Made by a program: the position numbers and the translations under genes. A DNA stretch of 64,000 bases from the human T2T-CHM13v2.0 reference genome, Homo sapiens: NCBI RefSeq assembly GCF_009914755.1, contig NC_060943.1; one strand, 5' to 3'. Of this stretch, positions 27,033 through 55,131 are shown piece by piece. Positions within the stretch are counted from its first letter, which is position 1, and each line of letters opens with the position of its first letter. The notes under the pieces were generated by a model. That model made no database searches, was not told where the DNA came from, and saw nothing but the letters and a program-made list of their open reading frames with translations.

Positions 27033-27350
27033 TCAGAAAAGAAATGTGCCAAAACACTGTTTCTCATTCCACTTGAACTGGATCCCCATAATTCCAACAA
27101 ACATCACTTGTGACATTAGGTTGTCATCAGCTTGCATGATCCCCAGTTCACTTAACCTTTTCTTCTTCATCTGGCCTTTTTGTGTAAAGGCAGAAACCAG
27201 TTCATTTACAATTTCCCTCAACTTGCTCAGAAAGGTCAGATCTTGCATAAAACTCCATTTTAGCAGGTGCACATTGCATCAGCTCCTCTGGATCTACTCT
27301 TTCAGCTACATCTGCCTTTCTACTTGTCTGAATTTTAAGTGCTTTATTTT
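27033..27350 (-). pseudogene. SHCBP1: SHCBP1 pseudogene terminal exon 13 equivalent (coding part, frameshifted)
   Basis: atccag|NKALKIQTSRKADVAERVDPEELMQCAPAKMEFYARSDLSEQVEGNC(frameshift)...NELVSAFTQKGQMKKKRLSELGIMQADDNLMSQVMFVGIMGIQFKWNEKQCFGTFLF*; the last part is ORF 27033..27272. Confidence 0.94.
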
Positions 27351-27512
27351 CTGGATAAACAAACTATGACAAAGTTCAGTATGCAAGCTAGCCCAACTAA
27401 AACATAACATTTCTACACAGTCTGTTAGAGCTTTCAAGTGTTTTCTGCCAAGTATTCCTGCTGTCATCTAACTGGAGTTTACAAATTCCTTGCCATAAGA
27501 ATCTCAATGAGT

Positions 27513-29585
27513 AGTTTTTTCCAATTCTGTGAAGAAAGTCATTGGTAGCTTGATGGGGATGGCACTGAATCTATAAATTACCTTGGGCAGTATGACCATT
27601 CTCACGATATTGATTCTTCCTATCCATAAGCATGGAATGTTCTTCCATTTGTTTGTGTCCTCTTTTATTTCATTGAGCAGTGGTTTGTAGTTCTCCTTGA
27701 AGAGGTCCTTCACATCCCTTGTAAGTTAGATTCCTAGGTATTTTATTCTCTTTGAAGCAATTGTGAATGGGAGTTCACTCATGATTTGGCTCTCTGTTTG
27801 TCTGTTATTGGAGTATAGGAATGCTTGTGATTTTTGCACATTGATTTTGTATCCTGAGACTTTGCTAAAGTTGCTTATCAGCTTAAGGAGATTTTGGGCT
27901 GAGACGATGAGGTTTTCTAAATATACAATCATGTCACATCTGCAAACAGGGATAATTTGACTTCCTCTTTTCCTAATTGAATACCCCTTATTTCTTTCTC
28001 CTGCCTGACTGCCCTGGCCAGAGCTTCCAACACTATGTTGAACAGGAGTGGTGAAAGTTCATATGGAACCCAAAAAGAGTCTGCATTGCTAAGACAATCC
28101 TAAGCCAAAAGAACAAAGCTGGAGGCATCACACTACCTGACTATACTAAAAGGCTACAGTAAGCAAAACAGCATGGTACTGGTAACAAAACAGCATGGTA
28201 CTGGTACCAAAACAGAGATATAGACCAATAGAACAGAATAGAGCCCTCAGAAATAATACTACACATCTACAACCATCTGATCTTTGACAAACCTGACAAA
28301 AATAAGAAATAGGGAAAGGACTCCCTATTTAATAAATGGTGCTGGGAAAACTGGCTAGCCATATGTAGAAAGCTGAAACTGGATCCCTTCCTTACACCTT
28401 ATACAAAAATTAATTTGAGATGGATTAAAGACTTAAATGTTAGACCTAAAACCATAAAAAACCCAGAAGAAAACCTAGGCAATACCATTCAGGAAATAGG
28501 CATGGGCAAGGACTTCATGTCTAAAACACCACAAGCAATGGCAACAAAAGCCAAAATTGACAAATGGGATCTAATTAAACTAAAGAGCTTCTGCACAGCA
28601 AAAGAAACTACCATCAGAGTGAACAGGCAACCTACAGAATGGGAGAAAATTTTTGCAATCTACTCATCTGACAAAGGGCTAATATCCAGAATCTACAAAG
28701 AACTCAAACAAATTTACAAGAAAAAAACAACCCCATCAAAAAGTGGGTGAAGGATATGAACAGACACTTCTCAAAAGAAGACATTTACGCAGCCAACAGA
28801 CACATGAAAAAATGCTCATCATCACTGGACATCAGAGAAATGCAAATCAAAACCACAATGAGATACCATCTCACACCAGTTAGAATGGCGATCATTAAAA
28901 AGTCAGGAAACAACAGGTGCTGGAGAGGTTGTGGAGAAATAGGAACACTTTTACACTGTTGGTGGGACTGTAAACTAGTTCAACCATTGTGGAAGTCAGT
29001 GTGGCGATTCCTCAAGGATCTAGAACTGGAAATACCATTTGACCCAGCCATCCCATTACAGGGTATATACCCAAAGTATTATAAATCATGCTGCTATAAA
29101 GACACATGCACACATATGTTTACTGTGGCACTATTCACAATAGCAAAGACTTGGAACCAACCCAAATGTCCATCAATGATAGACTGGATTAAGAAAATGT
29201 GGCACATATACACCATGGAATACTACGCAGCCATAAAAAAGGATGAGCTCATGTCCTTTGTAGGGACGTGGATGAAGCTAGAAACCATCATTCTCAGCAA
29301 ACTATCGCAAGGACAAAAAACCAGACACCCCATGTTCTCACTCATAGGTGGGAAATGAACCATGAGAACACTTGGACACAAGAAGGGGAACGTCACACAC
29401 TGGGGCCTGTTGTGGGGTGGGGGAGGGGGAGGGATAGCATTAGGAGATATACCTAATGTAAACGTGGAGTTAATGGGTGCAGCATACCAACATGGCACAT
29501 GTATACATATGTAACAAACCTGCACGTTGGCACATGTACCCTAGAACTTAAAGTATAATAATAATAATAATAAAAAGAAAAAAAA
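27513..29585 (+). mobile_element. 5'-inverted (twin-primed) L1PA4/5-like element in the last pseudogene intron
   Basis: 27513-28054 minus-strand ORF2; 28054-29585 plus-strand ORF2 end, 3'UTR and poly(A); 16-bp TSD aagaatctc(a/g)atgagt at 27497-27512 and 29586-29601. Confidence 0.95.
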
Positions 29586-29814
29586 AAGAATCTCGATGAG
29601 TGACTGTCTTGCTCTTTATGCCAAGGTTTCCTGATCTTCATACAGGATCACAAATTTTGAACTATTTGTCTACCCTTTTCATCCTACAATCTTCCCCACT
29701 CAACAGATATTTATTGGATATTTACTATCTGTTAAACATTGTGTTAGGAACTAGGATGCAGATTGGTAAGACAGTGCTACTTTCCTTTAACTCCCAATCT
29801 AGCAGCAAACTCTA

Positions 29815-30550
29815 GATGAGCCCCATGATCCCAGCCCCCGGTATTATTTTCATGACGATTAAATGGCAAAAGGAGTTTGCACTGCAATTTGCAATGTAAT
29901 TAAGGTTCCTAATCAGTTTTCTCCAGCTGGTTGCAAAAGAGGAAAAGAGGAAGTCAGAGAGATTCAAAGCATGAAAGGTTTGCCTTGAGGGAGGCTCTCT
30001 TCTGCTGAGATAGAGGGGACCATGAGGCAAGAATCTGAGAGCAGCCTCTAGAAGCTAAGTGCGAGCCCCAGCAAATAGCCAACAAGAAAACAGAGACCTC
30101 AGTCCTACAACCTACAGAAATGAATTCTGTTGATGAATAACATGAATGTATTTGGAAGTAGGTTCTTCCAACTGAGCTTTTCTTTTTTTTTTTTTTTTTT
30201 TTTTTGAGATGGAGTTTCATTCTTGTTGCCCAGGCTGGAGTGCAATGGCACGATCTCGGCTCACTGCAACCTCTGCCTCCCAGGTTCAAGTGATTCTCTT
30301 GCCTCAGCCTCACGAGTAGCTGGGATTACAGGCATGCGCCACCACACCCGGCTAATTTTGTATTTTTAGTAGAGATGGGGTTTCTCCATGTTGGTCAGTC
30401 TGGTCTCAAACTCCTGACCTCAGGTGATCTGCCTGCCTCGGCCTCCCAAAGTGCTGGGATTACAGGCGTGAGCCACTGTGTCCAGCCCCAACTGAGCTTT
30501 CAAACCAGAGCACTGTCCAGCTGACACCATGACTTCACCCTTCAGACCTG
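29815..30550 (+). mobile_element. MLT1-family MaLR LTR split by an Alu
   Basis: atggcaaaagg...gtaattaaggttcctaatcag...gagacctcagtcctacaac...gctgacaccatga. Confidence 0.7.
30181..30487 (-). mobile_element. AluSp/Sq
   Basis: Exact 13-bp TSD ccaactgagcttt (30168-30180/30488-30500); ctccatgttggtcag diagnostic. Confidence 0.95.
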
Positions 30551-53230: not shown

Positions 53231-54912
53231 CTTAGATTATTATTTTTTTAACTTCGTCATGCTCTTAAGAAGATGGGGGGAGGGGAGAAAGCTGAACAAA
53301 ATCCTAATTCATATCAAATTATGGTGAACACTCAATATTTAAAATGAACAGAAGATTTTATTTTCTTGCTTTTCCAAGTAAATGGATTGGGTAAAGCTTG
53401 AAAAAGTAAGGATTTTGTCTACTTTGGTTATCCACACTCATTTAAAGATACTCTAGAAATCTACTTTGCAAATAAGAAATTACGAACCAAACCACTGGTC
53501 TATTAAGTTGCGAAGATTAAGACTAAAATTTTAAAATAAGTTTCTTAGCATTTCCAATATCCATGCAAGTTAGCTTATTTCTTCTCATTAGATTGATACT
53601 TTACAGTCTAGAACCAGTGAACCAACATCATCTTCAGACCCCTAAGTTCTGAAGTAGTGTGTTTTGAATTAGAAAGGAAAAATATTTGCCACATGGTGCA
53701 AAATCAAGACAGTGATTTGATCTTGCCTGCTGATAGCTCTACTCCTATCTTAGCCCAGGAACCTTTTTAGAGTCTGCATACATGTGATAACATTCCAGTT
53801 TCTCCATCAAGTGCCACAGTTTCTTCTCCGTAACTAAAGACAATTCCTCCCTTATGCTGTCCCATCTGCCAGTGATGTACAAGGCATGTATGGAGATCAT
53901 TACTTGTCCACACATGCAAGGCTCTCAAATCAGAATACAATTTTTTTTGTCCACATACAGATCAAATTTGCCAGATATGCATTATATTTACCTACCATTA
54001 CATTCTACTTCAATCAAAACCAATCACTGCTCTTTAAGAGCAAGTGTATCAAACCTAGAAAATATTCAAGCTTTTTGATGTTCTGGGATTGTACTGAACA
54101 CACTATAGAAAAATAGGAAATGCACAATAGAAAAATTAGAAAGGTAGAAATCACAGTCAACTTATGAAAGCTGAAATCAGACATACATAATTGTAAACCA
54201 GGTAGAACCATTAACCAGATTTTCATTTTTTAAAAAATTTTGTTATTATTTACTATTTAAACCAAGAGAAACTTACTAAATCAAATCAAACTGCATGAAA
54301 ATGTAAAGGCCTTGTCTTATATAATGTCAAATCATCTTTCACATAGGAAAAACAAATTACCTTCTACAATTCTTTTTAGTGTGAGTTCTAATTTTATTGC
54401 AGCATTGCCTGTTAATTTACTGCTCAGGAATACAGGAGAAAATTACTGGTCTTACAGCACCATCTAGTGGAAAGATAAGTGTCGCATGTAACAAGATCAG
54501 CATAGAACAACTACTTAATTTAGGTTGCATGATTAATTTTGGTATTTTTGAACGGAAAAGCTTTTCCTTGTCAAAATATGATAAATTAGAAGAATGCGTT
54601 TAGGTATTTTTGATTCATCTGTTAGTTTAACCTAGTATGTTTTACTATAGGAACTTAGAGTAAAGCCATATACTTTAAAAAAAAAGTATTATTTAAGTTT
54701 CAAGCAAAAAAGTCTCTATAATGCAAATAAGTTCTTTGTTTTTCAAACAATTGTCATTAAATAGATGTTCACAAACCTCCTGATTTTAGGCTTAGTTTAT
54801 AAACAGTTAAAGCAGGTTTCTCTGCACTTGTTCGTTTCATTTAATAACTTGAAAAGGGGCTGCACTATTTGTATATTGGTCTATTTCTGTCTATAGGCCC
54901 TTGGAGTAAGAG

Positions 54913-54972
54913 TATGTGCGTGTGTATGTGTGTGTGTATGTGTGTGTGTGCGTGCATTGCGCATGTGTGTGT
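54913..54972. repeat. (TG)n microsatellite
   Basis: Imperfect tgtgtg run. Confidence 0.85.
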
Positions 54973-55038
54973 CTCACAAAGGTAAAATTAAGCCATGGTA
55001 ACTATTTTTTCAATATGTACAAGGTCAGTAATAAACAC

Positions 55039-55131
55039 AATCTCAATTGAGGTTTAACACGTCTGACAAAACAATCATATGCATCATCCTTTTCTTCATC
55101 CCAACTCTTCCAAATGTTCTGGTAGAAAAAC
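55039..55131 (-). pseudogene. SHCBP1: SHCBP1 pseudogene exon 5 equivalent (93 bp, open, AG/GT intact)
   Basis: tttttcag|G TTT TTC TAC...AGA TT|gtgttt; FFYQNIWKSWDEEKDDAYDCFVRRVKPQLRL versus recalled SHCBP1 FFYQNIWRSWDEEEEDEYDYFVRCVEPRLRL. Confidence 0.92.

What the first reader, a model, noticed from the sequence alone, without database searches (positions are those of the whole stretch)
27033..55131. Ancient intron-containing SHCBP1 paralogue hidden among repeats
Seen: nine exons in correct order and intron phase; the ORF track shows only two of them. Introns mean DNA-level duplication rather than retrotransposition. Identity to recalled human SHCBP1 is only about two-thirds in exon 9 (30/44), and the C-terminus matches SHCBP1 itself rather than a distant paralogue. 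Known: SHCBP1/Nessun Dorma is a centralspindlin-associated protein with pectin-lyase-like repeats, involved in cytokinesis and germ-cell division. Inference: an old mammalian duplicate that may have been functional for a time and may still be intact in other lineages, i.e. a lost third family member besides SHCBP1 and SHCBP1L.
Basis: partly seen in the sequence, partly recalled or inferred. Interest (0 to 1): 0.8.

Follow-up and report, generated by a model that had tools for sequence, protein, structure and literature searches.

The report
Dead intron-containing copy of SHCBP1
This stretch holds the last nine exons of a broken, intron-containing copy of the cell-division gene SHCBP1, made by a large DNA duplication in early primates and already annotated as a pseudogene, so it is ordinary.

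Summary

- **Origin.** The exons belong to a block of about 66 kb (window 24556 to about 90256) that is colinear, introns and flanks included, with about 61 kb around SHCBP1 on chr16. Identity at aligned noncoding bases is 82% (K80 0.205).
- **Age.** It is not an old mammalian paralogue. A protein tree nests it in placental SHCBP1 near the primates. An AU test rejects placement on or before the boreoeutherian stem, and rejects placement after the human/capuchin split. One old Alu sits at the same site in both copies, while 27 of 30 chr16 Alus are private.
- **State.** The copy is dead: ATG became GTG, there are four in-frame stops, most exons carry frameshifts and five splice sites are lost.
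- **Selection.** Its branch gives dN/dS of 1.00 (95% CI 0.75-1.35), against 0.12 for SHCBP1, so no functional period is detectable.
- **Relatives.** None of 96 SHCBP1 proteins from other species looks like an intact orthologue.
- **Annotation.** RefSeq already names the locus LOC100420587.

The one mildly interesting point lies outside the window: the exon-1 homologue keeps a CpG island, where the annotated non-coding gene begins.

The parts
24556..64000 (-). In-window part of the duplicated block, which runs on to about window 90256. It is colinear with chr16 52375200-52436010, the SHCBP1 gene plus about 3 kb downstream and about 18 kb upstream.
   Evidence: blastn chains. In-window noncoding part: 21,694 aligned sites, p 0.171, K80 0.197.
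55039..55131 (-). Exon 5 homologue: 93 nt, no indel, AG acceptor kept, donor GT kept in a weakened context after a 4-nt deletion.
   Evidence: Pfam SHCBP_N 40.7 bits. 81 of 93 bases identical to the parent.
51956..52177 (-). Exon 6 homologue: two in-frame 6-nt deletions and an in-frame stop at parental codon 238 (CGA to TGA).
   Evidence: Pfam SHCBP_N 56.9 bits. 205 of 222 bases identical.
51700..51864 (-). Exon 7 homologue: acceptor AG changed to TG, indels summing to -4 (frameshift), stop at codon 320 (CAA to TAA).
50884..51007 (-). Exon 8 homologue: +3 nt, both splice dinucleotides kept.
   Evidence: 101 of 121 bases identical.
48219..48347 (-). Exon 9 homologue: 30 of 44 residues identical; donor GT lost through a small deletion.
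44908..45015 (-). Exon 10 homologue, the most decayed in the window: six indels summing to -11, donor lost. Recognisable only at DNA level.
   Evidence: 79 of 106 bases identical, inside chain block 44645-45552.
31718..31807 (-). Exon 11 homologue: +4 and -1 indels (local frameshift), donor GT changed to CT.
31218..31354 (-). Exon 12 homologue: -4 and -1 deletions (frameshift), splice sites kept.
27033..27350 (-). Exon 13 homologue: 8-nt deletion (frameshift); the parental stop codon position is kept at 27033-27035.
   Evidence: 280 of 318 bases identical.
45697..45944 (+). Old Alu in intron 9, also present at the same site in the parent (chr16 52393993-52394242). Same orientation and same 5' truncation, with flanks aligned on both sides. 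It was therefore inserted before the duplication.
   Evidence: Non-CpG divergence from the Alu consensus is 0.131 (chr19 copy) and 0.093 (chr16 copy). The chr16 copy carries the J-type motif.
27424..29603 (.). Insertion specific to the chr19 copy, in intron 12. It is largely L1-like: 28054-29576 is 92% identical to an L1-like element at chr16 52386647-52388156.
   Evidence: Gap in the chain between blocks 26359-27423 and 29604-30180. LINE-like ORFs.
51041..51422 (.). Repeat of about 380 bp inserted only in the chr19 copy, in intron 7. Weaker copies lie at 35119-35471, 37166-37423 and about 75964-76339. It was later copied together with exon 8 to chr11.
   Evidence: Chain gap. chr11:71304556-71305237 matches window 50697-51391 at 81% over 699 bases, but matches chr16 over only 338 bases.

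Best explanation
The finding is the 3' two-thirds (exons 5-13) of an unprocessed SHCBP1 pseudogene.

- A block of about 61 kb containing the whole SHCBP1 gene with its promoter and flanks was copied as DNA between chr16 and 19q12. This happened in the primate lineage, after the first dimeric Alus had inserted and before most Alu insertions.
- Rough date: 45-70 million years ago, before the split of New World monkeys from the human line.
- The copy shows no sign of ever having been under protein-level constraint and has decayed neutrally.
- Everything in the window is now non-coding DNA lying inside the span of the annotated non-coding gene LOC100420587. None of that gene's 10 RefSeq exons is in the window.

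**Shown:** homology, colinearity, the disabling mutations, neutral substitution pattern, placement in the tree.

**Inferred:** the absolute date, and the direction of the copy. chr16 is taken as the source from recalled mouse synteny with Vps35/Orc6.
For: 1. **Colinear DNA homology through introns and flanks.** Window 24556 to about 90256 aligns with chr16 52375200-52436010. Over 32,041 aligned noncoding sites p is 0.177 and K80 is 0.205.
2. **All 13 coding exons have homologues in order**.
3. **Disabling mutations.** ATG became GTG. There are stops at parental codons 81, 153, 238 and 320. 32 indel events lie in about 2 kb of exon; by net length 6 of 13 exons are out of frame, and 3 more carry internal frameshifts that cancel. 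Five splice dinucleotides are lost.
4. **Substitution pattern.** Pairwise dS is 0.226, dN 0.129 and omega 0.57 over 627 codons. Polarised with strepsirrhine plus non-primate proteins, 113 amino-acid changes fall on the pseudogene branch and 14 on the SHCBP1 lineage, with 27 ambiguous and 5 on both. This gives omega 1.00 (95% CI 0.75-1.35) for the pseudogene against 0.12 (0.07-0.19) for SHCBP1. Differences by codon position are 80/80/91.
5. **Tree.** The ML tree (52 rows, 672 columns) puts the copy among Euarchontoglires next to the primates, on a branch of 0.37. Human and capuchin SHCBP1 join at 100% without it. The AU test rejects sister-of-human (p 0.007) and the stems of Boreoeutheria (0.032), Placentalia (0.009) and Theria (3e-39).
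6. **Anthropoid-stem changes.** Of 13 substitutions on the anthropoid stem of SHCBP1, the copy has the ancestral state at 9, the derived state at 1 and another residue at 3.
7. **Alus.** One J-type Alu is shared at the same site with the same truncation. 27 of 30 chr16 Alus and 4 of 7 chr19 Alus in the block are private.
8. **Internal clock.** Per-lineage non-CpG divergence of the two copies is about 0.084-0.095. That lies between S-type Alus (mean 0.067, n=62) and J-type Alus (mean 0.123, n=5) from the same loci.
9. **Annotation.** RefSeq names the locus an SHCBP1 pseudogene (hub annotation). PMC6659138 (passages read) calls it a noncoding gene of unknown function.
Against: - **Limit of the omega estimate.** The lower confidence bound of 0.75 still allows a constrained phase of up to roughly a quarter of the branch. 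The estimate also assumes that synonymous change is split equally between the two lineages. Outgroups were available only as proteins, so no codon model could be run.
- **Weak placement in the tree.** Local supports are 42-48%. The copy sits beside pikas in the FastTree of all 98 rows, probably long-branch attraction. The rodent and Euarchontoglires stems are not rejected by the AU test (p 0.22); they are excluded only by the shared Alu.
- **Two further same-site Alu pairs, outside the window, give conflicting signals.**
  - 68445/52414757: the two members differ in type, J-like against S-like.
  - 82174/52431026: both are S-type and look younger than the duplication (0.070 and 0.048).
  - These could be parallel insertions or gene conversion. 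If they are truly shared, the date moves towards the young end.
- **No other primate genome could be examined.** Presence or absence and shared disabling mutations in other species are untested.
Confidence: 0.93

Rival explanations
1. A formerly functional third SHCBP family member: an old mammalian paralogue that worked for a long time, was lost in the human line and may be intact elsewhere.
For: - All exons and most splice sites are recognisable.
- Pairwise omega of 0.57 is below 1.
- The confidence interval of the branch omega reaches down to 0.75.
Against: - Pairwise omega of 0.57 is what one neutral branch plus one constrained branch gives. After polarisation the pseudogene branch has omega 1.00 and SHCBP1 has 0.12.
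- The copy nests inside placental SHCBP1. The Boreoeutheria, Placentalia and Theria stems are rejected.
- Intron DNA still aligns at 82%, and an Alu is shared. Both are incompatible with a pre-primate origin.
- 0 of 96 proteins found with exon 6 looks like an intact orthologue. All named ones are SHCBP1 or 'hypothetical protein'.
Confidence: 0.03
2. A dead coding copy whose promoter was kept and reused. The duplicated SHCBP1 CpG-island promoter stays active and drives the roughly 290-kb non-coding gene LOC100420587. On this reading the locus has a function as RNA or as a regulatory element, while the window's exons are just intronic debris.
For: - The exon-1 homologue keeps a CpG island: window 71000-72000 has GC 0.65-0.74 and CpG observed/expected 0.75-0.83. 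That is as strong as the parent's (GC 0.61-0.67, o/e 0.76-0.86).
- The surrounding alignment there is the most diverged of the block (67-73% identity).
- A CCAAT box and a TTTGAA element just upstream of the former start codon are kept. Reading them as cell-cycle promoter elements is recalled knowledge.
- The RefSeq gene ends at 71653, beside the exon-1 homologue (71539-71622), and the exon-1 donor GT is kept.
- PMC6659138 (passages) reports differential methylation in the promoter area.
Against: - A CpG island can persist through germline hypomethylation alone, without a useful product.
- No expression, conservation or perturbation data were available here.
- The exon positions of NR_110759.1 were not seen.
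- This rival concerns sequence outside the window. It does not conflict with the main explanation for 27033-55131.
Confidence: 0.35
3. A processed (retrotransposed) SHCBP1 pseudogene later broken up by repeat insertions.
For: None beyond the presence of SHCBP1-like exons among many repeats.
Against: - The sequences between the exons are homologous to the parent's introns throughout, 21,694 aligned noncoding sites in the window alone.
- Splice-site contexts and polypyrimidine tracts are copied.
- Homology continues about 18 kb upstream of the promoter and about 3 kb past the 3' end.
Confidence: 0.005

Closest known systems
SHCBP1 (human chr16; CHM13 chr16:52378559-52418209, minus strand; 672 aa as reconstructed)
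   Same: - Same 13-exon layout with the same exon borders.
- 74% amino-acid identity (464 of 627 comparable codons).
- 86% exon and 82% noncoding nucleotide identity.
- The SHCBP_N domain is recognisable.
- Promoter CpG island with the CCAAT and TTTGAA elements.
   Different: The chr19 copy has no start codon, four in-frame stops, many frameshifts and five lost splice sites. Its substitution pattern is neutral. It cannot make the protein.
SHCBP1L (human chr1, about 182.26 Mb in CHM13)
   Same: Same protein family. One beta-helix exon matches SHCBP1 residues 405-488.
   Different: Only 37% identity in that single match, and no DNA-level homology was seen. The chr19 copy is far closer to SHCBP1 and nests within placental SHCBP1. 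It is therefore not a relative of SHCBP1L, nor an equally old third branch.
Unprocessed (duplicated) pseudogenes inside old interchromosomal segmental duplications
   Same: The gene was copied with introns, promoter and flanks, the copy is disabled, and it evolved neutrally.
   Different: At 82% identity it lies below the 90% threshold usually used to catalogue segmental duplications (recalled convention). It would therefore not appear in such lists, only in pseudogene annotation.
Transcribed pseudogenes / pseudogene-derived lncRNAs
   Same: RefSeq type 'transcribed_pseudogene'. The annotated gene end coincides with the copied promoter.
   Different: The RefSeq transcript uses none of the nine pseudo-exons in the window (hub annotation). 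It extends about 220 kb beyond the copied block.

Membership tests
SHCBP1 family (sequence descent) | SHCBP N-terminal domain (Pfam PF23762) | tested here: met
   E6 ORF 56.9 bits and E5 ORF 40.7 bits against a 27.1-bit cut-off, at profile positions 166-229 and 119-152.
SHCBP1 family (sequence descent) | Right-handed beta-helix region (Pfam PF13229) | tested here: inconclusive
   Five single-exon ORFs (E8, E9, E11, E12, E13) gave 0 Pfam families even at E up to 10. Intact SHCBP1 (P0072) has PF13229 at residues 432-546. The chr19 exons align to that part by tblastn and DNA alignment.
SHCBP1 family (working gene) | Open reading frame with start codon and intact splice sites | tested here: not met
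   ATG became GTG. 4 stops, 32 exon indel events, and 5 of 24 splice dinucleotides lost.
Unprocessed pseudogene | Introns and flanks homologous to the parent locus, colinear | tested here: met
   A chain of about 50 blocks running from window 24556 to about 90256.
Unprocessed pseudogene | Neutral substitution pattern on its own branch | tested here: met
   Omega 1.00 (95% CI 0.75-1.35). Codon positions 80/80/91.
Independent ancient paralogue (third family member) | Branches outside the placental SHCBP1 clade | tested here: not met
   AU test: Placentalia stem p 0.009, Theria stem p 3e-39, Boreoeutheria stem p 0.032.
Independent ancient paralogue (third family member) | Intact orthologues in other species | tested here: not met
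   None of 96 proteins (of 116 candidates) looks like an intact orthologue in a tree of 98 rows. The copy's only neighbours there, two pika proteins, are named SHCBP1 and are 87-88% identical to human SHCBP1. This is a protein database only; no genomes of other mammals were available.
Processed pseudogene | No introns, poly-A tail, no promoter | tested here: not met
   Introns and promoter region are copied.
Catalogued segmental duplication | At least 90% identity over at least 1 kb (recalled convention) | tested here: not met
   Identity is 82.5% at aligned bases. Only one 200-column window reaches 96%.

The most novel reading that the evidence does not exclude
The coding part died at once, but the copied SHCBP1 promoter has been kept as an unmethylated CpG island, with its CCAAT and TTTGAA elements, for some 50-65 million years. 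It now starts a roughly 290-kb non-coding gene. If so, the duplication donated a proliferation- or germline-type promoter to 19q12, and that promoter, not the exons in the window, is what selection or germline activity has preserved.
Probability: 0.3. Interest if true: 0.3.

Novelty: already known. Interest (0 to 1): 0.12.

Why it matters
It matters little. The locus is an annotated pseudogene, and this work removes the suggestion that it is a lost third SHCBP family member.

- The extent of the duplicated block (about 61/66 kb).
- An approximate primate-stem to anthropoid-stem date.
- Evidence that the copy was never detectably constrained.
- A small secondary copy on chr11.

None of these four points was found in three full-text searches.

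The retained CpG island could interest people who meet LOC100420587 in methylation or GWAS lists.

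Tried and rejected
- **Protein Data Bank.** Searched by sequence with exon 6: 0 matches at E up to 1. No structure work followed.
- **Pfam on single beta-helix exons.** Nothing found.
- **Homology left of 24556.**
  - An inverted match, 15775-16743 against chr16 52374306-52373359 (78.8%), and a direct match at -9689..-9251 against 52372919-52373355 sit next to the block's end on chr16. In chr19 they are scattered.
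  - I could not tell a rearranged end of the duplication from a dispersed repeat, so I left the boundary at 24556.
- **Homology right of about 90256.** The only further long matches are to an L1-like element at chr16 52437965-52443900, which hits many places. I did not count them as part of the block.
- **Alu typing by one recalled 10-base motif**. This was too crude, so I replaced it with divergence from a consensus of 88 local copies plus 39 J/S-discriminating columns. It still rests on only 5 clear J-type copies.
- **Absolute dating from a generic substitution rate.** This gives anything from 47 to 85 million years, so I rely on the tree, the shared Alu and the internal Alu calibration instead.
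- **The chain's Alu-to-Alu block** 69666-69968 against 52416599-52416904. I rejected it as orthologous because the two Alus lie about 430 bases apart relative to the aligned flanks.

Full report
**What is there**

Stop-to-stop ORFs on the minus strand already show SHCBP1-like peptides at 27033-27278, 50834-51007, 51931-52152 and 55002-55163. Two of them match Pfam SHCBP_N above the curated cut-off, at 56.9 and 40.7 bits against 27.1.

The window's own genome is held. Exon 6 finds itself and one other place, chr16:52401043-52401273, at 88% identity.

A capuchin SHCBP1 protein (P0072) searched against the whole genome gave 25 matches:
- 13 on chr16, which is SHCBP1.
- 10 on chr19, which is this locus.
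- 1 on chr1 at 37% identity, which is SHCBP1L.
- 1 small match on chr11.

**The parent gene model and the exon-by-exon comparison**

I derived the 13 coding exons of human SHCBP1 on chr16 using P0072 and GT/AG sites. They translate to 672 residues.

Aligning each exon with its flanks to chr19 gives homologues for all 13. E5-E13 lie in the window at the coordinates listed under parts. E4 to E1 lie beyond it, at 66540-71622.

The damage:
- The start codon is GTG.
- In-frame stops sit at parental codons 81, 153, 238 and 320.
- Net exon length changes, E1 to E13: -19, +3, -1, -6, 0, -12, -4, +3, -3, -11, +3, -5, -8.
- The E4, E9, E10 and E11 donors and the E7 acceptor are lost.

**How it arose**

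blastn of the window and its flanks against 80 kb, later 140 kb, of chr16 gives a single colinear, same-orientation chain. It runs from window 24556 to about 90256 and from chr16 52375200 to 52436010.
- The chain runs through all introns, about 3 kb beyond the 3' end and about 18 kb upstream of the promoter.
- This is a DNA-level duplication of about 61 kb, now about 66 kb on chr19, and not a retrocopy.
- Noncoding identity at aligned bases is 82%: 32,041 sites, p 0.177, K80 0.205. For non-CpG sites p is 0.167 and K80 0.192.
- Beyond both ends I found only dispersed repeats or ambiguous pieces.

**When**

Four lines of evidence bear on the date.

1. *Protein tree.* I chose 63 of the 96 proteins by hand, added human SHCBP1 and the frame-corrected pseudogene translation, and then dropped 13 partial or isoform rows. 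That left 52 rows and 672 columns.
   - The copy falls inside Euarchontoglires next to the primates, on a long branch (0.37).
   - Human and capuchin join at 100% without it.

2. *AU test.* I grafted the copy onto 13 branches of that tree.
   - Rejected: sister-of-human (p 0.007), Laurasiatheria (0.031), Boreoeutheria (0.032), Afrotheria (0.026), Placentalia (0.009), Theria (3e-39).
   - Not rejected: the stems of anthropoids (0.38), primates plus pika (0.65), strepsirrhines (0.65), pikas (0.52), rodents (0.22) and Euarchontoglires (0.22).

3. *Anthropoid-stem substitutions.* Of 13 amino-acid changes on the anthropoid stem of SHCBP1, the copy keeps the ancestral residue at 9, has the derived one at 1 and another at 3. 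The duplication therefore predates most of that stem.

4. *Alus.* In the block, chr19 has 7 Alus and chr16 has 30.
   - One pair, window 45697-45944 and chr16 52393993-52394242, sits at the same site. It has the same orientation and the same 5' truncation, and the flanks align on both sides. It is old in both copies.
   - Dimeric Alus are confined to primates (recalled knowledge), so the duplication is primate-specific.
   - Among 88 Alu copies from the loci held, S-type copies average 0.067 non-CpG divergence from consensus (n=62) and clear J-type copies 0.123 (n=5).
   - The two SHCBP1 copies are about 0.084-0.095 per lineage, between the two bursts.

Using recalled ages for those bursts and for the platyrrhine split, I put the event at roughly 45-70 million years ago.

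Two further same-site Alu pairs outside the window do not fit neatly.
- In one pair the chr19 member is J-like and the chr16 member S-like.
- In the other, both are S-type and look younger than the duplication.
- Parallel insertion or Alu gene conversion would explain them, but I could not decide between these.

**Was it ever functional?**

- Pairwise Nei-Gojobori values over 627 codons are dS 0.226, dN 0.129 and omega 0.57.
- I polarised the amino-acid differences with the consensus of 4 strepsirrhine and 16 non-primate sequences. That assigns 113 changes to the pseudogene branch and 14 to the SHCBP1 lineage, with 27 ambiguous and 5 on both.
- With synonymous change split equally, omega is 1.00 (bootstrap 95% CI 0.75-1.35) for the pseudogene and 0.12 (0.07-0.19) for SHCBP1. 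Differences by codon position are 80/80/91.
- Exon indels run at about 16 per kb. That is no rarer than half the noncoding rate of about 21 gap openings per kb.
- There is thus no sign of a constrained phase. A short one, up to about a quarter of the branch, cannot be excluded.

**Intact relatives elsewhere?**

- The search with exon 6 among longer proteins returned 96 proteins out of 116 candidates.
- All named ones are SHCBP1, SHCBP or 'hypothetical protein', and five are unnamed.
- In a FastTree of all 98 rows, only the two pika proteins sit next to the copy (support 0.73). This is most likely long-branch attraction: both are named SHCBP1 and are 87-88% identical to human SHCBP1.
- This is a partial test, because no other mammalian genome was available.

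**What is known**

- Full-text searches were run for the locus name (14 papers, listing seen). They were also run for SHCBP1 with 'pseudogene' or SHCBP1L (118 papers, 15 listed) and for pseudogene name variants (2 papers).
- By title and abstract start these were GWAS, methylation, expression and other disease-oriented studies. None treated the pseudogene's evolution.
- PMC6659138 (two passages read) calls it a noncoding gene of unknown function with a differentially methylated region in its promoter area.
- Supplements were not opened.

**Beyond the window**

- The exon-1 homologue keeps a CpG island as strong as the parent's, although the alignment there is the most diverged of the block.
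- A CCAAT box, a TTTGAA element and the exon-1 donor are kept.
- The RefSeq gene end at 71653 lies beside it.
- This suggests the copied promoter is still active. That is the only part of the locus with a possible function, and it is inference.

**Verdict**

The finding is already known and of low interest.

Noticed in passing
G000 chr11:71304556-71305237 (loci L026/L027): A fragment of about 0.7 kb matches window 50697-51391 at 81% over 699 bases. It covers exon 8 plus the chr19-specific repeat of about 380 bp. It matches chr16 over only 338 bases (79.9%). It was therefore copied from the chr19 pseudogene, or a common intermediate, after that repeat had inserted: a secondary duplication about as old as the first.
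   Followed up: partly
window coordinates 71000-72000 (locus L011, outside the window): The exon-1/promoter homologue keeps a CpG island (GC 0.65-0.74, CpG o/e 0.75-0.83) with a CCAAT box and a TTTGAA element. The annotated end of LOC100420587 (71653) lies in it.
   Followed up: partly
window coordinates 68187-68399 (locus L011); also 69426-69630, 66346-66526 and in-window 51992-52191: These are patches of unusually high identity between the two copies: 96% at the first and 93% at the others, against 82.5% overall in 200-column windows. The first covers exon 3 and the adjoining intron. They could be gene-conversion tracts or locally constrained sequence.
   Followed up: no
window coordinates 68445-68735 / chr16 52414757-52415037, and 82174-82463 / chr16 52431026-52431266 (outside the window): Two Alu pairs sit at the same site in both copies but do not behave as simply inherited. 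The first pair differs in subfamily character (J-like against S-like at about 10 discriminating columns). The second is S-type in both and less diverged from consensus than the duplication would require.
   Followed up: partly
window 15775-16743 (inverted) and window coordinate -9689..-9251 (locus L013): Two pieces match adjacent chr16 sequence (52373359-52374306 and 52372919-52373355) just beyond the block's 3' boundary, at 77-79%. In chr19 they are scattered and one is inverted. This is either a rearranged end of the duplication or a dispersed repeat.
   Followed up: no
window 20955-23717 and 28054-29576: L1-like pieces 92-93% identical to an L1-like element in SHCBP1 intron 10 on chr16 (52385394-52388156). 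That chr16 element is itself absent from the chr19 copy. All three are insertions younger than the duplication.
   Followed up: no
window 35119-35471 and 37166-37423: Two copies, about 2 kb apart, of the same repeat of about 350 bp that is inserted at 51041-51422. They lie inside a chr19-specific insertion in intron 10. The layout would fit a small LTR element with both LTRs, but the repeat was not classified.
   Followed up: no
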